From IMG/VR virus record IMGVR_UViG_2778261066_000005: 12,377 bases of DNA. One strand, written 5' to 3'. Every line of letters starts with the position of its first letter. The first letter of the stretch is position 1. The position numbers and the translations under genes are program-made. Under the pieces are notes generated by a model that saw only the letters and a list, made by a program, of their open reading frames with translations, did no database searches and had not been told where the DNA came from. Positions 3,524-10,067 of the stretch are shown piece by piece. Source of the stretch: a virus (Duplodnaviria > Heunggongvirae > Uroviricota > Caudoviricetes).

Positions 3524-3898
3524 ATGCTCATAGATTTGGTTTTACCTTACCCGCCGACGGTGAACACTTACTGGCGTCGTCGTGGCAGCACATATTTTGT
3601 ATCAAAAGCCGGGGAGCGTTATCGCCGGGCAGTGGCGCTTATTGTTCGCCAGCAGCGGCTGAAATTAAGCCTGTCCGGAAGGTTGGCAATAAAAATTATT
3701 GCAGAACCACCGGATAAGCGCCGCCGTGACCTGGACAATATTCTGAAAGCGCCGCTGGATGCGCTGACGCATGTGGGGTTGCTAATGGACGATGAGCAGT
3801 TTGATGAAATCAATATCGTTCGTGCTCAGCCAGTATCTGGTGGACGTCTGGGGGTGAAGATTTACCCCATAATGCTTGAAGGGCAGGTCAAAAAATGA
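3524..3898 (+). CDS. rusA: Holliday-junction resolvase RusA (crossover junction endodeoxyribonuclease)
   Basis: 124-aa protein with the RusA signature ...TYWRRRG...PDKRRRDLDNILKAPLDAL...; Shine-Dalgarno AAGAGGTGA at 3512-3520; its stop overlaps the next start as ATGA at 3895-3898. Confidence 0.9.
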   Translation: MLIDLVLPYPPTVNTYWRRRGSTYFVSKAGERYRRAVALIVRQQRLKLSLSGRLAIKIIAEPPDKRRRDLDNILKAPLDALTHVGLLMDDEQFDEINIVRAQPVSGGRLGVKIYPIMLEGQVKK

Positions 3899-4716
3899 AA
3901 CTGGAAGATTTACCGAAATACCACTCCCCAAAATCCCCCGGCCTGACTGATGCATCGGCCTCAACGTCGAAAGATGCGCTGAGTATCACTGATGTGATGG
4001 CCGCGCAGGGCATGACACAGAATCGGGCTGAGATGGGGTTTTCTGCGTTCCTTGGGAAAATGGGCATTAGTATGAATGACAGAGAGCGGGCAACAGAATT
4101 GCTGACAGAATATGCACTCAGTCGGTGTGATCGCGTGGCGGCGTTAAGAAAACTCCCGGCAGAAATAAAACCGGCAGTGATGCGTATTATGGCTTCGTAT
4201 GCGTTTGAAGATTATGCCCGCAGCGCGGCGAGCAAAAAACAGTGCTCCTGCTGTCACGGAAAAAAATTTATTGAAAGCGAGGTTTTTACAAACAAGATCC
4301 AGTATCCGGATGGTAAGCCGCCGGTATGGGCAAAGTGTACGAAAGGTGTGTATCCGTCTTACTGGGAAGAATGGAAAAAAGTCAGGGAGGTGGTAAAAGT
4401 TGCCTGTCCGGAGTGTGGCGGAAAGGGTGAGGTTTCCACCGCCTGTAAGGATTGCCGTGGGCGTGGTGTCGCCATTCATCGTGAAGAGTCGGTAAAACGT
4501 GGTATGCCTGTTATCAGAGACTGCCAGCGTTGTGGTGGTCGTGGCTGTGAAAGACTACCATCAACGGAGGCATTTAATGCCATATGCAAAGTGACGAGTG
4601 CTATCACGCTTGATACGTGGAAAAAATCAGTGAAACGCTTTTACGATACGTTGGTGGTTCGGTTTGACATTGAAGAGGCATGGGCGGAGCGGCAGTTAAA
4701 GAGGGTAACGCGATAG
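3895..4716 (+). CDS. Q-like late-gene antiterminator (QuuQ-type), 273 aa, with four CxxC motifs
   Basis: Sits immediately after rusA and immediately before a pR'-like promoter and tR'-like terminator, which is the canonical place for Q. Four CxxC pairs (CSCCHG, CPECGG, CKDCRG, CQRCGG) indicate zinc-ribbon repeats. The family call rests on context and recalled similarity. Confidence 0.65.
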   Translation: MKLEDLPKYHSPKSPGLTDASASTSKDALSITDVMAAQGMTQNRAEMGFSAFLGKMGISMNDRERATELLTEYALSRCDRVAALRKLPAEIKPAVMRIMASYAFEDYARSAASKKQCSCCHGKKFIESEVFTNKIQYPDGKPPVWAKCTKGVYPSYWEEWKKVREVVKVACPECGGKGEVSTACKDCRGRGVAIHREESVKRGMPVIRDCQRCGGRGCERLPSTEAFNAICKVTSAITLDTWKKSVKRFYDTLVVRFDIEEAWAERQLKRVTR

Positions 4717-5290: not shown

Positions 5291-6340
5291 ATGCTTAATA
5301 CTGTAAAAATATCCAGTTGTGAGTTAATCAACGCCGACTGCCTGGAATTTATCCGGTCGTTACCCGAAAATTCTGTTGACCTGATAGTCACGGACCCGCC
5401 GTACTTTAAAGTGAAGCCTGAGGGCTGGGATAACCAGTGGAAGGGCGACGATGATTACCTGAAGTGGCTGGACCAGTGTCTGGCGCAGTTCTGGCGGGTG
5501 CTGAAACCTGCCGGAAGTCTTTACCTGTTCTGTGGTCATCGCCTGGCATCTGATATCGAAATCATGATGCGTGAACGCTTCAGTGTGCTGAACCATATTA
5601 TCTGGGCGAAGCCGTCCGGACGCTGGAACGGATGCAACAAGGAAAGCCTGCGGGCGTATTTCCCCGCCACAGAGCGCATTCTGTTCGCGGAACATTATCA
5701 GGGGCCGTATCGTCCGAAAGATGCCGGGTATGCGGCGAAGGGCAGTGCACTGAAACAGCATGTGATGGCCCCGCTGATTTCTTACTTTCGTGATGCGCGC
5801 GCGGCCCTGGGGATAACGGCAAAACAGATTGCAGATGCCACAGGAAAGAAAAACATGGTGTCGCACTGGTTCAGTGCCAGTCAGTGGCAGCTACCGAACG
5901 AAAGCGATTATCTGAAATTACAGTCGCTGTTTGCCCGGGTGGCAGAAGAGAAACATCAGCGCGGTGAACTGGAAAAGCCCCACCACCAGCTGGTGGATAC
6001 GTATACGTCACTGAACCGGCAGTATGTGGAGCTGCAGAGTGAATATAAGCATCTGCGGCGGTATTTTGGTGTGACGGCGCAGGTGCCGTACACGGATGTG
6101 TGGACACATAAACCGGTGCAGTTCTATCCCGGGAAACATCCGTGCGAAAAACCGGCAGAAATGCTGCAGCAGATAATCAGCGCAAGCAGTCGTCCGGGTG
6201 ACCTGGTTGCAGATTTTTTTATGGGCTCAGGTTCAACGGTAAAAGCGGCACTGGCGCTCGGGCGTCGTGCGATTGGCGTTGAGCTGGAGACCGGACGTTT
6301 TGAGCAGACAGTCAGGGAAGTTCAGGATTTAATCGTTTGA
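5291..6340 (+). CDS. Orphan beta-class amino-DNA methyltransferase (N6-adenine or N4-cytosine), 349 aa
   Basis: Motif IV DPPY at nt 5393-5404 (SVDLIVTDPPYF) near the N-terminus and motif I FxGxG (DLVADFFMGSGST) near the C-terminus, the beta-class order. No adjacent restriction endonuclease gene. Confidence 0.85.
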   Translation: MLNTVKISSCELINADCLEFIRSLPENSVDLIVTDPPYFKVKPEGWDNQWKGDDDYLKWLDQCLAQFWRVLKPAGSLYLFCGHRLASDIEIMMRERFSVLNHIIWAKPSGRWNGCNKESLRAYFPATERILFAEHYQGPYRPKDAGYAAKGSALKQHVMAPLISYFRDARAALGITAKQIADATGKKNMVSHWFSASQWQLPNESDYLKLQSLFARVAEEKHQRGELEKPHHQLVDTYTSLNRQYVELQSEYKHLRRYFGVTAQVPYTDVWTHKPVQFYPGKHPCEKPAEMLQQIISASSRPGDLVADFFMGSGSTVKAALALGRRAIGVELETGRFEQTVREVQDLIV

Positions 6341-6389
6341 AACGGATGAGATTGCAGAATTAATTACGCACCATTATTATTCTGCTCCC

Positions 6390-6465
6390 GGCCCTTTAGC
6401 TCAGTGGTGAGAGCGAGCGACTCATAATCGCCAGGTCGCTGGTTCAAATCCAGCAAGGGCCACCA
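6390..6465 (+). tRNA. ileZ: tRNA-Ile2 (anticodon CAU; ileX/ileZ-like), 76 nt with encoded CCA
   Basis: Hand-folded cloverleaf: acceptor GGCCCTT/AAGGGCC, D-arm GCTC-AGTGGTGA-GAGC, anticodon CAT at 6423-6425, T-loop TTCAAAT, discriminator A plus CCA. Closely resembles E. coli tRNA-Ile2 from memory; an elongator tRNA-Met cannot be excluded by eye. Confidence 0.8.
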
Positions 6466-6474
6466 TATCACATA

Positions 6475-6551
6475 CCACCATTAGCTCATCGGGATAGAGC
6501 GCCAGCCTTCGAAGCTGGTTGCGCGGGGTTCGAGTTCTCGATGGCGGTCCA
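6475..6551 (+). tRNA. tRNA-Arg (anticodon UCG), 77 nt, with non-canonical pairs
   Basis: Acceptor CCACCAT/ATGGCGG (one A-C mismatch), D-arm GCTC...GAGC, anticodon loop CTTCGAA (TCG at 6509-6511), T-loop TTCGAGT, CCA at 6549-6551. The T-stem contains two G-U pairs, so it may be partly degenerate. Confidence 0.6.
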
Positions 6552-6565
6552 TTTATCGGTATTCT

Positions 6566-6609
6566 GCGTTGTTAGCTCAGCCGGACAGAGCAATTGCCTT
6601 CTAAGCAGC
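6566..6609 (+). pseudogene. Truncated tRNA-Arg (UCU): 5' half only
   Basis: GCGTTGT-TA-GCTC-AGCCGGACA-GAGC-A-ATTGC-CTTCTAA-GCAGC gives acceptor 5' strand, D-arm and anticodon arm (TCT at 6600-6602). No T-arm and no ACAACGC acceptor 3' strand follow; a GT-rich tract follows instead. Confidence 0.5.
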
Positions 6610-6807
6610 TGTGGTTGCACTCCTGTTGTTTCTGGTGGTGATGGTGGACTTCAGCAGCCGGATAATGTCGGTGCTGTCTGATGGTGTTTTGGTGGCGGGT
6701 GTGTGGTTGTTGCTTTCCCGTTGCTGAAAAAGAAAGCATCAGGCGATTAGCAGGGTATCAGTTACACGTTGAAATTTTTAAATACCTCACAATTCCACAG
6801 CTTGATG

Positions 6808-7005
6808 ATTGTCTGGCTGCCGGAGAATTTGTTAAAAATTACATCGCATGGTGAATCCCCCTCAGCGGCGGGGCATCTGGCAAAGTGTATGATCCAGAGA
6901 ACATGCAAATTCAGTAGACAGGCTGAATTTACCGGGAGGCCCCTGGCACCATGCGACAGACAGAAATTAGGCTATACTTCAGCCCCTCTCCGGAGGGGCT
7001 TTTCT
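6808..7005 (+). repeat. Structured non-coding element, copy 1 (about 198 bp), terminator-capped
   Basis: Paralogous to 7277-7470. Shared blocks: ATTGTCTGGC, TTTGTTAAAAA, TCGCATGGTGAATCCCCCT, GAATT(T/C)ACCGGGAGGC(C/A)CC(T/C)GGCACCATGC, and terminal palindrome AGCCCCTC-TCCG-GAGGGGCT plus T-run. Confidence 0.7.
6981..7005 (+). terminator. Intrinsic terminator ending element copy 1
   Basis: 8-bp GC-rich stem AGCCCCTC/GAGGGGCT with TCCG loop, followed by TTTTCT. Confidence 0.65.
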
Positions 7006-7194
7006 GTGCAGGATGTGTCACAGTTTCCTGAATTCTGAGTACTGTCCTGTTACTCAGGGTGCTATATTTTCTGACGTGATGAAAGTCTGCCGGAAGGCGG
7101 AACGTATCGGAAATGACCCAGTAGAGAAAACGTTGACTCAGATACCGATGCTGAGTTACCGGGAAACCGGCATCACATGACCGCTATCCTTCCA

Positions 7195-7217
7195 GGCTCG
7201 CTCCGGCGGGCCTTTTT
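7195..7217 (+). terminator. Intrinsic terminator of the unit between the two copies
   Basis: Stem GGCTCGC / GCGGGCC (one G-U pair), loop TCCG (the same loop as the flanking terminators), then TTTTT (7213-7217). Confidence 0.55.
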
Positions 7218-7276
7218 ACTGCAGAAAACAGTTTTCCCGTAAAATGCCACGTTGCTCATAATTCAGGCTGGCGATT

Positions 7277-7470
7277 ATTGTCTGGCCGGCGGGAAGTTTG
7301 TTAAAAAATTTCGCATGGTGAATCCCCCTGTGCGGAGGGGTAATCAGCGAGTAGGTATATGGGATAATCGCGGATTCAGGTGCTGGTACTGAATTCACCG
7401 GGAGGCACCCGGCACCATGCAATGGCACATAGCGCCACTCTCCAGCCCCTCTCCGGAGGGGCTGTTTATA
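7277..7470 (+). repeat. Structured non-coding element, copy 2 (about 194 bp), terminator-capped
   Basis: Paralogous to 6808-7005; the 19-nt block TCGCATGGTGAATCCCCCT is identical (7311-7329 versus 6844-6862); the same terminal palindrome sits at 7444-7463. Confidence 0.7.
7444..7470 (+). terminator. Intrinsic terminator ending element copy 2 (weak U-tract)
   Basis: AGCCCCTC-TCCG-GAGGGGCT followed by GTTTATATTG. Confidence 0.5.
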
Positions 7471-7498
7471 TTGATTTTGTCAGATGTGAGTAAACTCC

Positions 7499-7834
7499 TT
7501 ATGGACTTTGTTGTTTTAGCCCATAAGGACATATTTGCAGAGTGCAACGGTTATTAAAGCATTCATTCAATACGTTATCTGTATTTGTAGGGCATTCCTG
7601 GCTGTTTTTGATTAAATTCCAGAATGTTTTATTGAATGGTACTACGTTGTAAATGGTTACAGGTAGCACTTTGTTATTGAGCATGATGCCTGTGTGAGTC
7701 AGTGTAAATATACTTTCAGGAGGTAAGAAAGCATCCGATTGATACCAGATTATTAATTTTATTTTACTCCATATGACTGAAAAAGATATTCCGCATGATG
7801 GCTGGATAACTGTATCAATCACAATCCACTTCAT
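7499..7834 (-). CDS. Hypothetical protein, 111 aa, in an AT-rich island; the only candidate gene on the minus strand
   Basis: ORF with AAGGAAA about 6 nt upstream of its ATG on the minus strand. Base composition is much more AT-rich than the flanking phage genes. No motif recognised; it could be spurious. Confidence 0.3.
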
Positions 7835-8079
7835 TTAGTTTCCTTGTTTATGCCTTGCTGGTGATGTTCTGAAAAGTATAAATGATATTTTTGATTGTAA
7901 ACCATAGAGCAGAATTATTTTTCTGATGTTGTTTATTGTTTATTTAAATGCAGGGTGGTTTATATCTCGTCTTGTAGTTTATCCATGCATATCTGCTTGA
8001 TGATGAGGTTTTTATTTAAGGTATGGTTTTGTGTTTTTTCTGTATTACATGTCAGGTATTTTAAAGAATCATTTTTCAG

Positions 8080-9951
8080 ATGGTGGAAAGAACCATGGCA
8101 TTTAAACACTATGATGTTGTCAGGGCGGCGTCGCCGTCAGATCTTGCGGAAAAGCTGACACATAAACTGAAAGAGGGCTGGCAGCCGTTTGGTAGTCCGG
8201 TGGCCATAACCCCTTATACCCTGATGCAGGCGATTGCAGCAGAAGGTGATGTGGTCGTCAGTGGTGCAACTGAGCCGGAGTGGTACTACGTCATCGTACT
8301 GGCCGGGCAATCCAATGCCATGGCTTACGGTGAAGGGCTTCCGCTTCCGGATTCATACGATGCGCCCCATCCGCGCATTAAGCAACTGGCCCGGCGTAAC
8401 ACAGTGACTCCCGGTGGTGAAGTATGCGTATTTAACGACATCATTCCTGCTGACCATTGTCTGCATGATGTTCAGGATATGAGTACGATTAATCATCCCC
8501 GGGCTGACCTGAGCAAAGGGCAGTACGGCTGTGTCGGACAGGGCTTACATATTGCCAAAAAACTGCTTCCGTATATCCCTAATAACGCGGGGATCCTGCT
8601 GGTACCATGCTGTCGTGGTGGTTCGGCATTCACCCAGGGCACGGAGGGGACATTCAGCGAGTCCACGGGGGCCAGTCAGGATTCGGCTCGCTGGGGAGTG
8701 GGTAAGCCGTTATATCAGGATCTGCTTTTCCGCACGAAGGCAGCATTGCAGAAAAATCCGAAAAACGTTTTGCTGGCGATATGCTGGATGCAGGGGGAAT
8801 TCGATATGACGAATGCCAGTTACGCCCAGCAGCCAGCAGCATTTCTTGCAATGGTACAGCAGTTCCGTGCTGACCTTGCCGGGCTGGCGGCGCAGTGTCA
8901 CGGTGGAAGTCCGGCATCAGTCCCCTGGATTTGTGGCGACACGACATACGCGTGGAAACAAGAACACGGTACGCAATATGAAGTGGTATATGGTGCATAT
9001 AAAGGTAAAGAATCCCAGCAGATTTATTTTGTTCCCTTTATGACCGATGGTAGCGGAGTTAATACACCGACAAACAACCCGTCAGAAGATCCTGATATTG
9101 CCGGGTCTGGTTATTACGGTTCGGCATCCCGAACGAACAAAAACTGGGTATCATCAAATCGCCCGACGCATTTCAGCTCATGGGCGCGTCGTGGCATTAT
9201 TCCCGATCGTATGGCAACTGCTATTCTGAACGTAGCCGGTCGCACCTTAGCCTTCATTAGTGGTAAGGCACCGGAAATCAAACCCTCGCCCGGCGGCGAC
9301 ACTCCATCGGGGCCGTCTGATGGTGACACATCCGTTCGTACAGTCTCCCTGCTGCCGACAGCCGGAGAGGCTGCTGCGCAGGGCTGGACCATCACCGGCG
9401 GCAGTGTTGCGCTGGAAGATGGTGTGTTTAAGGTTACCAAGCAGAGCAATAAAACTTGGTCCCTGATGCATCCGGTGGATGACGCAGTCTCCCTGCTGAC
9501 ACGGGGTGGCAGACTGAGCTGTAAGTTTCGACTGTCAGGCGCACTGACCAACAACCAGTTCGGTCTGGGAATTTATCTGTATACCGATGTAGCGTTACCT
9601 GACGTCGTGGCGATGACCGGGACTGGTAACCCGTTCCTGATGTCGTTCTTCACCCAGACCACAGACGGCAAACTGAATCTGATGCATCACAGGAAAGCAG
9701 GAAACACAAAGTTGGGCGAGTTCGGGAATTACAGTAACGACTGGCAGACGCTGGAGCTGGTGTTCACCGCCGGCAGTGCCACGGTTACTCCGAAACTGAA
9801 TGGAGTGGCTGGCCCGGCATTCCAGGTCATAAAAGACAGTCTGACACTGGGGCTGAATGCGCTGACGCTGACGGATATTACCAAAAATGCAGCGTATGGC
9901 GTTGAGATAGAAAGTCTGGTGCTGGAGATAAATGCACCAGCATCATCATAA
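8080..9951 (+). CDS. nanS-p: NanS-p-like prophage sialate O-acetylesterase (DUF1737 N-terminus plus SASA/SGNH esterase domain), 623 aa
   Basis: VIVLAGQSNAMAYGEG carries the GQSN motif of the sialate O-acetylesterase family. The size and the position between the tRNA cluster and the lysis cassette match the nanS-p genes of Stx phages (recalled). Alternative start ATG 8095 has a better-spaced GGTGGAAAG upstream. Confidence 0.8.
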   Translation: MVERTMAFKHYDVVRAASPSDLAEKLTHKLKEGWQPFGSPVAITPYTLMQAIAAEGDVVVSGATEPEWYYVIVLAGQSNAMAYGEGLPLPDSYDAPHPRIKQLARRNTVTPGGEVCVFNDIIPADHCLHDVQDMSTINHPRADLSKGQYGCVGQGLHIAKKLLPYIPNNAGILLVPCCRGGSAFTQGTEGTFSESTGASQDSARWGVGKPLYQDLLFRTKAALQKNPKNVLLAICWMQGEFDMTNASYAQQPAAFLAMVQQFRADLAGLAAQCHGGSPASVPWICGDTTYAWKQEHGTQYEVVYGAYKGKESQQIYFVPFMTDGSGVNTPTNNPSEDPDIAGSGYYGSASRTNKNWVSSNRPTHFSSWARRGIIPDRMATAILNVAGRTLAFISGKAPEIKPSPGGDTPSGPSDGDTSVRTVSLLPTAGEAAAQGWTITGGSVALEDGVFKVTKQSNKTWSLMHPVDDAVSLLTRGGRLSCKFRLSGALTNNQFGLGIYLYTDVALPDVVAMTGTGNPFLMSFFTQTTDGKLNLMHHRKAGNTKLGEFGNYSNDWQTLELVFTAGSATVTPKLNGVAGPAFQVIKDSLTLGLNALTLTDITKNAAYGVEIESLVLEINAPASS

Positions 9952-10035
9952 AAAGTGAGCCAGTCAAATGGAAGGTATCGTTAAACTCACCGGTAGTGTC
10001 AGTGGGTCGTCTGAGATGCCTGCATGAGTTATCAG

Positions 10036-10067
10036 AGCCATCAGTACTTAACTGGTGGCTTTTTTTA
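10036..10067 (+). terminator. Intrinsic terminator between nanS-p and the lysis cassette
   Basis: Stem AGCCATCAG (10036-10044) / CTGGTGGCT (10052-10060) with one G-U pair, loop TACTTAA, then TTTTTTT (10061-10067). Confidence 0.6.

What the first reader, a model, noticed from the sequence alone, without database searches (positions are those of the whole stretch)
6808..7470. Two paralogous ~195-bp structured, terminator-capped non-coding elements sit where Stx phages carry stxAB
Seen in sequence: copies at 6808-7005 and 7277-7470 share discrete conserved blocks separated by divergent sequence, which is the pattern expected for a structured RNA rather than a protein. The block GCATGGTG can pair with either downstream ATT(T/C)ACC or CACCATGC; the T/C difference is a G-U to G-C change that preserves pairing. 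The 3' block contains a GGGAGG plus ATG that the 5' block could sequester. Both copies end in the identical palindrome AGCCCCTC-TCCG-GAGGGGCT, and a third terminator with the same TCCG loop lies between them (7195-7217). The peptides downstream of the conserved ATG are not conserved (MRQTEIRLYF... versus MQWHIAPLSS...). Inference: a pair of sRNA genes or cis-regulatory switch units, arranged in tandem like type I toxin-antitoxin or anti-sRNA loci.
Basis: partly seen in the sequence, partly recalled or inferred. Interest (0 to 1): 0.75.

Follow-up and report, generated by a model that had tools for sequence, protein, structure and literature searches.

The report
Tandem STnc100 prophage small RNA genes

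Summary
Units at 6808-7005 and 7277-7470 are 74% identical (shuffled controls 49%), with conserved blocks, divergent spacers and identical terminators. Both are full-length, high-scoring matches to Rfam RF02076 (STnc100): 138 and 132 bits against a threshold of 47. STnc100 is a known prophage sRNA family. It is related to PasD1/PasD2 of EPEC and includes EcOnc27/sRNA103, which sits 75 nt downstream of stx2B in Stx2 phages.

The "third terminator" ends a third, diverged unit (about 7075-7217, 30 bits), so the locus is a three-gene tandem array.

The leftmost ~38 nt of each "copy" is a promoter, not RNA. The RNA probably starts at G of GCAUGGUG.

Across 43 diverse homologues the fold (closing helix P1, P2-P5) is strongly supported by covariation. 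A loop-loop pseudoknot also co-varies.

The variable ~25-nt stretch before the terminator corresponds to the mapped PasD seed and is swapped among homologues.

Most likely these are independently transcribed, Hfq-associated, trans-acting sRNAs with different seeds. They are not cis switches or type I toxin-antitoxin loci. Novelty is low, and the family's function remains unknown.

The parts
6809..6838 (+). Unit 1 promoter: -35 TTGTCT (6809-6814), 18-nt spacer including an extended -10 TG (6830-6831), and -10 TAAAAA (6833-6838).
   Evidence: Coordinates. The 5' end of the homologous PasD2 RNA maps to the G of GCAUGGUG. Promoter-like hexamers lie 3-10 nt upstream of P1 in 21 of 44 diverse units, against 3.6% of shuffled sequences. 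The promoter assignment is an inference.
6846..7004 (+). Unit 1 RNA (about 159 nt). Parts: P1 5' strand 6846-6853; P2 hairpin 6857-6873; S segment 6875-6881; P4 hairpin 6907-6930; P5 hairpin 6932-6946; P1 3' strand 6947-6954; variable tail (presumed seed) 6955-6980; terminator 6981-7003.
   Evidence: Rfam RF02076 match at 6816-7009, 138 bits, E 5e-31, model positions 1-206. Minimum free energy -62.5 kcal/mol, z -3.0, with the P1-closed multibranch fold. Coordinates.
7060..7068 (+). Middle unit candidate extended -10 promoter TGcTATATT. The -35 is poor.
   Evidence: Inference only.
7075..7217 (+). Middle unit RNA, a diverged family member (about 143 nt). Parts: P1 5' strand CGUGAUG 7075-7081; P2 7086-7101; S UAUCGG 7105-7110; P4 7135-7157 (loop ACCGAU 7144-7149); P5 with GAAA loop 7159-7170; P1 3' strand CAUCACA 7171-7177; tail 7178-7193; terminator 7194-7217.
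   Evidence: RF02076 match at 7045-7220, 30 bits, E 3e-4, below the threshold of 47. Aligns over its full length with units 1 and 2 and with PasD. Folds on its own into the same architecture, z -2.9. Relative to units 1 and 2 there are three compensatory changes in P1 and two in the terminator stem. A 90%-identical copy sits in a different array in strain CE10, with further compensatory changes in P2.
7278..7307 (+). Unit 2 promoter: -35 TTGTCT (7278-7283), extended -10 TG (7299-7300), and -10 TAAAAA (7302-7307).
   Evidence: Same reasoning as for unit 1.
7313..7469 (+). Unit 2 RNA (about 157 nt). Parts: P1 5' strand 7313-7320; P2 7324-7340; S AUCAGC 7343-7348; P4 7372-7396 (loop GCUGGU 7382-7387 pairs with S); P5 7398-7412; P1 3' strand 7413-7420; variable tail (presumed seed) 7421-7443; terminator 7444-7469.
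   Evidence: RF02076 match at 7285-7473, 132.5 bits, E 1e-29. Minimum free energy -69.8 kcal/mol, z -3.0. S:loop duplex of 7 bp, -8.6 kcal/mol. Coordinates.
6390..6607 (+). Upstream boundary of the slot: tRNA-Ile(CAU) 6390-6465, tRNA-Arg(UCG) 6475-6551, and a truncated third tRNA (argO remnant, about 6563-6607).
   Evidence: Repeat D3. Homology to 933W ends at 6607, inside argO.
6611..6727 (+). DUF3927 small ORF immediately upstream of unit 1. The same pairing of ORF and RNA is seen upstream of PasD1 and PasD2.
   Evidence: Pfam PF13064, E 6e-11. PGAP annotation. About 76% DNA identity to the E2348/69 loci.
7499..7834 (-). IraM-like anti-adapter gene, convergent with the sRNA array. It forms the downstream boundary of the slot, ahead of the SASA/NanS-p esterase gene.
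   Evidence: PGAP annotation of identical DNA. ORF list.

Best explanation
The locus is a tandem array of three genes of the STnc100/PasD family of prophage small RNAs. It lies in the 'moron' slot of a lambdoid E. coli prophage, between the late-region tRNA cluster and the esterase and lysis genes.

Shown:
- Family membership of units 1 and 2.
- Homology of the middle unit.
- The conserved fold: a 7-8 bp closing helix P1 that pairs the RNA's 5' end with a strand about 100 nt downstream, enclosing hairpins P2, P3 (with a variable insert), P4 and P5. This is followed by a roughly 25-nt variable tail and an intrinsic terminator.

Inferred:
- Each unit is its own transcription unit. A weak -35 plus an extended -10 promoter ends 5-7 nt before the G of GCAUGGUG, and a terminator follows about 155 nt later.
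- Each unit is expressed in the lysogen as a discrete, stable, Hfq-associated RNA.
- The structured 5' scaffold, further locked by a co-varying contact between the segment just 3' of P2 and the apical loop of P4, protects and presents the RNA.
- The variable tail just upstream of the terminator is the seed that base-pairs with target mRNAs in trans. The three units carry three different tails, so they would address different targets.
- The conserved blocks flanking the tail (P5/P1 3' strand, and the terminator) let recombination swap tails between prophages.
- The terminators also insulate downstream lysis genes until Q-modified polymerase reads through.
For: Family membership:
- Rfam RF02076 hits of 138 and 132.5 bits (threshold 47), full model length, plus a third hit of 30 bits.

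Same family in known phages and strains:
- In 933W the hit (208 bits) lies 75 nt after stxB2 and is convergent with AsxR.
- That copy is EcOnc27/sRNA103, an Hfq-crosslinked sRNA (PMC12711010; PMC4104026).
- EDL933 has 11 transcribed STnc100 copies, one confirmed by Northern blot (PMC5331693).
- RpoD binds STnc100 promoters in Salmonella LT2 (PMC10794520).
- PasD1/PasD2 of EPEC are discrete RNAs of 172-173 nt, seen by Northern blot and Hfq RIL-seq (PMC8550237). They score 38-41 bits on RF02076 and share the GCAUGGUGAAUCC and GGGAGGC blocks. Zhu et al. 2026 assign them a common origin with STnc100.

Fold:
- On 43 diverse homologues, 95.7% of cells are paired, against 42-47% when partners are slid.
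- 14 of 25 pairs have compensatory changes, against 6.9 +/- 1.3 in shuffles (0 of 500 reach the observed value).
- Permutation tests of cognate against non-cognate partners for P1 and P4 give p about 1e-4 to 2e-4.
- All three window units fold into this shape on their own, z about -3.

Loop contact:
- Cognate S:P4-loop duplexes average -10.3 kcal/mol, against -7.2 for non-cognate partners among 21 dissimilar types, p 5e-5. More than 12 distinct complementary pair types occur.

Promoter:
- The PasD2 5' end maps to the G of GCAUGGUG.
- Positional enrichment of -35/-10 hexamers upstream of P1.

Seed:
- The tail is the least conserved part of the two strong units (52% identity).
- At least 10 different tail cassettes occur among IMG/VR homologues. 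The same scaffold occurs with different tails and the reverse.
- The PasD seed UGUGAG, inferred from RIL-seq target motifs, lies in the equivalent position. PasD1 chimeras map to the last ~50 nt.

Arrays:
- Tandem arrays of 2-5 units above the Rfam threshold recur in other phage contigs and in strain CE10.
Against: - There are no expression data for this particular prophage. The transcription start, the stability and the Hfq binding of these three units are all extrapolated from homologues.
- The consensus promoter scan did not call the + strand promoters, because their -10 ends in A rather than T.
- Unit 2's U-tract is interrupted (UGUUUAUAUU), and unit 1 has only four U's.
- No target is known for any STnc100 tail of these types.
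- PasD levels change little in a delta-hfq RNA-seq comparison (log2 fold change 0.5 and -0.2).
- The scaffold has about 45 nearly invariant nucleotides, a five-way junction and a loop-loop contact. That is more elaborate than a typical Hfq sRNA needs, so it may have a function of its own.
- Unit 1 retains only a weak version of the loop contact (-3.3 kcal/mol).
Confidence: 0.7

Rival explanations
1. The conserved scaffold is the functional part. It would be a protein-binding, ligand-binding or enzyme-recruiting RNA module (a decoy, a sponge for a host factor, or a processing signal), and the variable tails would be secondary or neutral.
For: - Near-invariant GGUGAAUCCCCCU..GCGG.GGGGC and UCACCGGGAGGCACCCGGCAC persist across homologues whose P1, P3, P4 and loop-contact sequences have all changed.
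- The fold is a five-way junction with a co-varying loop-loop contact.
- P5 abuts P1 to give a 12-13 bp coaxial stack.
- The family's function is still unknown.
Against: - The PasD relatives form Hfq-dependent chimeras with many mRNAs through their 3' region, where a shared target motif maps.
- The middle unit and PasD have lost parts of the invariant blocks (GGGAAA; shortened P5) yet are conserved.
- No partner gene is consistently adjacent.
- ARAGORN finds no tRNA-likeness in the units on the + strand, even at 70% of its normal thresholds.
Confidence: 0.15
2. The 5' block would alternate between two partners (AUUYACC or CACCAUGC) to hide or expose GGGAGG and AUG, controlling translation of a small peptide or expression of downstream genes.
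For: - GGUGA can pair with either UCACC (junction of P4 and P5) or CACC (P1). In 43 homologues, 86% of cells in the alternative helix are pairable, against 17-44% when partners are slid.
- GGGAGG followed by AUG is present in units 1 and 2 and in PasD.
- Ribosome footprints on EDL933 copies vary from 0.04 to 3.2 in ribosomal coverage value.
Against: - The alternative helix has no compensatory change, and its counts equal the shuffled controls.
- Six unique scaffolds with GAUG compensate in P1 (CAUC) and not in the alternative partner.
- The T/C difference is compensated within P4.
- The AUG is missing in much of the family.
- The peptides are unrelated, and the ORFs run through the terminator, so the RNA would carry no stop codon.
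- The middle unit lacks the SD-like motif.
- Each unit ends in its own terminator, and the next gene differs between loci: another unit, iraM on the other strand, AsxR, the esterase gene or the holin gene.
Confidence: 0.06
3. The units are type I toxin-antitoxin loci, or anti-sRNA (sponge) genes like AsxR/AgvB.
For: - They lie at the same moron site where the anti-sRNAs AsxR and AgvB are encoded.
- They are arranged in tandem, and prophages are rich in hok/sok loci. One hokD gene is in this window.
- A sponge activity of the tails cannot be excluded.
Against: - There is no conserved or hydrophobic toxin ORF, and no overlapping ORF has a Pfam match.
- No antisense partner RNA is present.
- AsxR and AgvB models give no match with E up to 10 in 6540-8100. 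In 933W, AsxR is a separate 53-nt gene on the opposite strand, next to the STnc100 copy.
- PasD partners in RIL-seq are mostly mRNAs.
Confidence: 0.04
4. The units are decaying duplicated DNA (recombination scars) with no present function. Their only effect would be that of terminators in the late operon.
For: - The middle unit falls below the Rfam threshold, has a poor -35, and has lost the GGGAGG motif.
- Unit 1 has a weakened loop contact.
- Prophage moron regions are highly mosaic.
Against: - Differences between units, and between the two versions of the middle unit, are compensatory in P1, P2 and the terminator.
- Promoter, fold and terminator are all retained in each unit.
- The array is at least 99% identical in hundreds of genomes.
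- Family members elsewhere are abundantly transcribed.
Confidence: 0.05

Closest known systems
STnc100 (Rfam RF02076), including EcOnc27 / sRNA103 downstream of stx2B in Stx2 phages
   Same: - Units 1 and 2 match the whole 206-position model at about three times the gathering score.
- The fold, the terminator (AGCCCCUCUCCGGAGGGGCU), the strand and the genomic slot (after the late-region tRNAs, before the NanS-p esterase and lysis genes) are the same.
   Different: - The tails (presumed seeds) and the internal variable insert differ from the 933W copy. Only the conserved blocks align at 95-97%.
- Here there are three units in tandem and no stx.
- The convergent partner is an iraM-like gene rather than AsxR.
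PasD1 / PasD2 of EPEC E2348/69 (Pearl Mizrahi 2021; Zhu, Shabalina and Storz 2026)
   Same: - Same architecture: GCAUGGUGAAUCC start, P2, loop contact (AAUGAUC:GAUCAUU), GGGAGGC, tail and terminator.
- Same upstream DUF3927 ORF and Q-to-lysis context.
- PasD supplies the experimental 5' end, size, Hfq association and seed position that I extrapolate to the window.
   Different: - PasD scores only 38-41 bits on RF02076.
- It has a shortened P5, a longer tail with seed UGUGAG, and a different terminator.
- BLAST similarity to the window units is limited to about 35 nt.
AsxR / AgvB anti-sRNAs (Tree et al. 2014)
   Same: Encoded in the same moron slot of lambdoid prophages, Hfq-bound, with modular variable and conserved parts.
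   Different: - They are 51-60 nt, with the variable part at the 5' end.
- They are on the opposite strand, convergent with the STnc100 copy.
- They belong to different Rfam families, and there is no match in this window.
Type I toxin-antitoxin loci (hok/sok)
   Same: Short, structured, terminator-capped prophage RNAs with long-range 5'-3' pairing. A hokD gene lies elsewhere in this window.
   Different: There is no toxin ORF, no antisense RNA and no conserved peptide.
Riboswitch-like or attenuator cis-regulators
   Same: A multi-helix junction with a co-varying tertiary loop contact, followed by a terminator.
   Different: - Each unit has its own promoter.
- No expression platform competes with the terminator.
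- No conserved downstream gene is present.
- The RNA accumulates as a discrete species in homologues.

Membership tests
STnc100 (RF02076) | Covariance-model score at or above the curated gathering score (47 bits), over the full model | tested here: met
   Unit 1 scores 138 bits and unit 2 scores 132.5 bits, both over model positions 1-206.
STnc100 (RF02076) | The same criterion applied to the middle unit | tested here: not met
   30 bits, E 3e-4, over model positions 1-206. It is a diverged relative, like PasD at 38-41 bits, and does not pass the threshold.
STnc100 (RF02076) | Consensus secondary structure kept by compensatory substitutions | tested here: met
   There are 25 pairs, of which 14 have changes on both sides. 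95.7% of cells are paired, against 42-47% when partners are slid. None of 500 shuffles reaches the observed values.
STnc100 (RF02076) | Prophage late-region context (downstream of Q and the tRNA cluster, upstream of lysis genes) | tested here: met
   The order in the window is Q 3895-4716, tRNAs 6390-6551, the units, esterase, holin, lysozyme. The order is the same in 933W and CE10.
STnc100 (RF02076) | Expressed as a discrete, Hfq-associated small RNA | not testable with these tools
   This is known only for homologues: EcOnc27 by Hfq CRAC, PasD by Northern blot and RIL-seq, and STnc100_4 by Northern blot.
PasD | Nucleotide-level similarity to PasD1/PasD2, including the seed UGUGAG | tested here: not met
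   Only about 35 nt aligns, at 83% identity. The tails are unrelated.
Type I toxin-antitoxin | A small conserved (usually hydrophobic) toxin ORF with an overlapping or adjacent antisense RNA | tested here: not met
   The ORFs after the ATG are unrelated and run through the terminators. Five overlapping ORFs have no Pfam match. The ATG is not conserved in the family.
Anti-sRNA (AsxR/AgvB) | Match to RF02703 or RF02702; 51-60 nt; antisense to the late operon | tested here: not met
   No match with E up to 10 in 6540-8100. In 933W both models do match, on the opposite strand next to STnc100.
Cis-regulatory switch | Two mutually exclusive helices, each supported by covariation, and a regulated downstream gene | tested here: not met
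   The alternative helix has no compensatory change. P1 compensates when GGUG mutates and the alternative partner does not. Downstream neighbours vary between loci.

The most novel reading that the evidence does not exclude
STnc100 RNAs may be a programmable platform rather than plain Hfq sRNAs. An invariant, compact scaffold (a five-way junction locked by a co-varying loop-loop pseudoknot that I did not find described in the papers read here) would recruit or resist a specific host or phage factor. A roughly 25-nt seed cassette, bracketed by two conserved recombination anchors, would be exchanged among prophages and multiplied into arrays of up to five units. The middle unit would then represent a further, unnamed subfamily alongside PasD.
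Probability: 0.15. Interest if true: 0.6.

Novelty: already known. Interest (0 to 1): 0.25.

Why it matters
This matters little as a discovery. Any Rfam-based annotator would label units 1 and 2 as STnc100, and the family has been reported in EHEC, EPEC and Salmonella prophages.

It is still a useful correction to annotation. PGAP leaves the region blank or places a spurious pseudo-CDS on the opposite strand of unit 2.

The family is of current interest for three reasons:
- Its function is unknown.
- One copy sits next to stx2, and sequence variants in it were reported as predictors of HUS.
- PasD relatives contact virulence mRNAs.

Three features seen here give concrete handles for experiments on target specificity and scaffold function:
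- the co-varying loop contact;
- the conserved-scaffold, swappable-tail organisation;
- the diverged middle-unit subfamily.

Tried and rejected
1. A scan of genome contigs with CATGGTGAATCCNCC was wasted. The same pattern and a 3'-block pattern worked in viral contigs.
2. The loop-loop contact could not be counted with the count of structure pairs, because MAFFT does not keep the two strands in register. I used permutation of cognate against non-cognate partners instead.
3. tRNA-likeness. The topology recalls a class II cloverleaf and the units sit next to tRNA genes. ARAGORN finds nothing down to 90% of its normal thresholds. At 70-80% it reports only calls on the opposite strand, one between units (7000-7082) and an odd-anticodon tRNA-??? 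call inside unit 2 (7322-7409). The Rfam tRNA model has no hit there either. Rejected.
4. Coding potential. Pfam finds nothing for any ORF overlapping the units.
5. PasA- or AsxR-like RNAs elsewhere in the window. BLAST finds nothing meaningful.
6. The consensus promoter scan found only chance-level sites, and none on the + strand upstream of the units. The promoter assignment therefore rests on homology and positional enrichment.
7. I did not build a covariance model of my own, because the Rfam model and RNAalifold sufficed.
8. I made no target prediction for the tails, because no host genome can be scanned with these tools.
Full report
**1. What is in the window**

The window is the late regulatory and lysis region of a lambdoid E. 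coli prophage. It is 100% identical to chromosomal DNA of several sequenced strains. At least 80% of the stretch 6300-7900 is present in 742 of 5426 complete E. coli genomes.

PGAP annotation of identical DNA, together with the ORF and tRNA scans, gives this order:
- antiterminator Q, 3895-4716
- a DNA methyltransferase, 5291-6340
- tRNA-Ile(CAU), 6390-6465
- tRNA-Arg, 6475-6551
- a truncated third tRNA
- a 38-aa DUF3927 ORF, 6611-6727 (Pfam E 6e-11)
- the region of the finding
- an iraM-like gene on the minus strand, 7499-7834
- a SASA/NanS-p esterase, holin, lysozyme and spanin

**2.

- The two ~195-nt stretches are 74% identical overall, against 49 +/- 1.7% for shuffles. Conserved blocks are 79-91% identical. 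An internal segment is 56% and the pre-terminator tail 52%.
- The shared palindrome lies at 6981-7000 and 7444-7463, and the third terminator with the same TCCG loop at 7194-7213.
- The long-range complement TCGCATGGTG/CACCATGCGA is exact.

**3. What the units are**

Both units are full-length matches to Rfam RF02076, STnc100. Unit 1 scores 138 bits and unit 2 scores 132.5 bits, against a gathering score of 47.

A permissive scan finds a third full-length but weak match at 7045-7220 (30 bits, E 3e-4). It ends in the "third terminator". The middle unit aligns with the other two over its whole length and folds on its own into the same architecture. The locus is therefore a three-unit tandem array.

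**4. What is known about the family**

- In phage 933W the model hits at 208 bits, 75 nt after stxB2. It is convergent with the anti-sRNA AsxR and precedes the esterase gene.
- That copy overlaps EcOnc27/sRNA103, an Hfq-crosslinked sRNA. Sequence variants in it were reported as HUS-predictive (Tree et al.).
- EDL933 has 11 transcribed copies, one verified by Northern blot.
- RpoD occupies STnc100 promoters in Salmonella LT2.
- Zhu, Shabalina and Storz (2026 preprint) conclude that STnc100 shares an ancestor with PasD1/PasD2 of EPEC.
- PasD1/PasD2 are RNAs of 172-173 nt, seen by Northern blot and Hfq RIL-seq. I fetched both loci. They score 38-41 bits on RF02076 and share the GCAUGGUGAAUCC and GGGAGGC blocks and the upstream DUF3927 ORF.

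The family's function is still described as unknown.

**5. Anatomy**

The mapped 5' end of PasD2 (741157) is the G of GCAUGGUG. By homology the window RNAs would start at 6846 and 7313, and at about 7075 for the middle unit. They would end at the U-tracts near 7004, 7469 and 7217.

The conserved block upstream of each (TTGTCT, 18 nt, TG-n-TAAAAA) is then a promoter, not RNA. In 44 diverse family members, -35/-10 hexamers scoring at least 9 sit 3-10 nt upstream of the first paired base in 21 cases. Only 3.6% of shuffled sequences reach that score. This step is an inference, and the generic promoter scan did not call these sites.

**6. Structure**

I collected about 150 units (96 unique scaffolds) from IMG/VR using two different anchors. 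I aligned 43 dissimilar ones together with the window units and PasD2.

RNAalifold recovers five helices:
- P1, which closes the RNA's 5' end onto a strand about 100 nt downstream
- P2
- a 3-bp P3 that closes the variable insert
- P4
- P5

The counts are:

| Measure | Observed | Control |
|---|---|---|
| Cells paired | 95.7% | 42-47% with partners slid |
| Pairs with changes on both sides (of 25) | 14 | 6.9 +/- 1.3 in shuffles; 0 of 500 reach 14 |

Because my search patterns fixed parts of P1, P2 and P5, the informative evidence comes from elsewhere. It comes from the outer four pairs of P1 (p 1e-4), from P3, and from P4, which has 33 different 3' arms, nearly all with a matching 5' arm.

The middle unit adds three compensatory changes in P1 (GCAUGGUG/CACCAUGC becomes ACGUGAUG/CAUCACAU) and two in the terminator stem. 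Its 90%-identical counterpart in strain CE10 adds more in P2. That argues the middle unit is a maintained RNA gene rather than debris.

**7. A loop contact**

The six or so nucleotides just 3' of P2 are complementary to the apical loop of P4. The complementarity co-varies through more than a dozen different sequence pairs:
- AUCAGC:GCUGAU
- CUGGUG:CACCGG
- CCAGUC:GACUGG
- CUAGAC:GUCUAG
- AAUGAC:GUCAUU
- and others

Cognate partners are more stable than non-cognate ones. Means are -11.1 against -7.9 kcal/mol over 75 combinations (p 2e-4). Among 21 mutually dissimilar types they are -10.3 against -7.2 kcal/mol (p 5e-5).

The pairing crosses P3 and P4, so it is a pseudoknot or kissing contact. 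It is present in unit 2 (7343-7348 with 7382-7387), in the middle unit and in PasD. In unit 1 it is weak. I did not see it described in the papers I read. This is a computational inference.

**8.

- The alternative helix GGUGAAU:AUUYACC is pairable in 86% of cells. This is because both strands are nearly invariant. It has no compensatory change, and the counts equal the shuffled controls.
- Where GGUG has become GAUG (six unique scaffolds), the P1 partner is CAUC while the alternative partner stays CACC.
- The T/C difference between the two window units is matched by A/G in the opposite arm of P4.
- The ATG belongs to the P1 3' strand and is absent where that strand reads CACCACAA, CACCACAC, GCAG and so on.
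- The ORFs are unrelated and run through the terminators.

A conformational switch is not excluded, but nothing supports it.

**9. The tail**

The stretch between P1 and the terminator is where the units differ most. Among homologues it occurs as at least ten unrelated cassettes. The same scaffold occurs with different tails and the reverse.

In PasD the seed inferred from RIL-seq target motifs lies in this position, and PasD1 chimeras map to the last ~50 nt. This is the basis for proposing that the three window units are trans-acting sRNAs with three different specificities.

**10. Arrays are normal for the family**

Contigs with 2-5 units above the Rfam threshold, spaced about 230-470 nt apart, recur. 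Strain CE10 carries a unit 2-type, a middle-type and a third type in the same slot.

**11. Verdict**

The finding is real and correctly read as non-coding structured RNA genes. However, it is a known, Rfam-catalogued prophage sRNA family in its usual place.

The cis-switch, toxin-antitoxin and anti-sRNA readings are not supported.

The added value here is threefold: the third diverged unit, the promoter/RNA boundary, and the co-varying loop contact with a modular tail. These refine the picture of a family whose function is still open.

Noticed in passing
window 6563-6607: There is a truncated third tRNA (argO remnant). Positions 6572-6606 are 77% identical to the D-arm/anticodon-arm part of the neighbouring tRNA-Arg. 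Homology to phage 933W stops at 6607, inside argO, so the DUF3927-unit 1-middle unit segment begins at a breakpoint within a tRNA gene.
   Followed up: partly
window 6611-6727; L002 2959-3117; L003 2562-2720: A small DUF3927 ORF lies immediately upstream of unit 1 here, and of PasD1 and PasD2 in EPEC E2348/69 (about 76% DNA identity). The ORF and the sRNA may travel together as one module.
   Followed up: partly
window 7303-7428 (minus strand): RefSeq/PGAP annotates an 'incomplete hypothetical protein' pseudogene on the strand opposite unit 2, and similar ones over PasD2 and the first CE10 unit (an intact hypothetical-protein CDS lies opposite PasD1), while the sRNA genes themselves are not annotated. 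These are probably spurious CDS calls over RNA genes.
   Followed up: partly
window 7499-7834 (minus strand): An iraM-like anti-adapter gene (RssB inhibitor, RpoS stabiliser) is convergent with the sRNA array. It occupies the place where Stx2 phages carry the antisense anti-sRNA AsxR. It has no Pfam hit at E 0.1.
   Followed up: no
window about 514-669: By PGAP annotation of identical DNA, a hokD type I toxin gene lies in this window. No Sok RNA reached the Rfam gathering score.
   Followed up: no
L294 5220-5316; L266 8139-8235; L282 8665-8763: In other phage contigs, Rfam isrI (Salmonella Hfq-binding RNA) hits lie directly beside STnc100 arrays; in L294 the hit overlaps a ~69-aa ORF.
   Followed up: no
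L144 vs L220; L164 vs L223; L186 vs L140 (IMG/VR loci): Pairs of STnc100 units share an identical scaffold, including the variable insert, but carry unrelated tails. This points to recombination at the conserved P5/P1 block and the terminator.
   Followed up: partly
window 10035-10065: A terminator-like hairpin with a T7 run (CCATCAGT..ACTGGTGGCTTTTTTT) lies between the esterase and holin genes. This is where EPEC carries PasA, but there is no PasA similarity here.
   Followed up: partly
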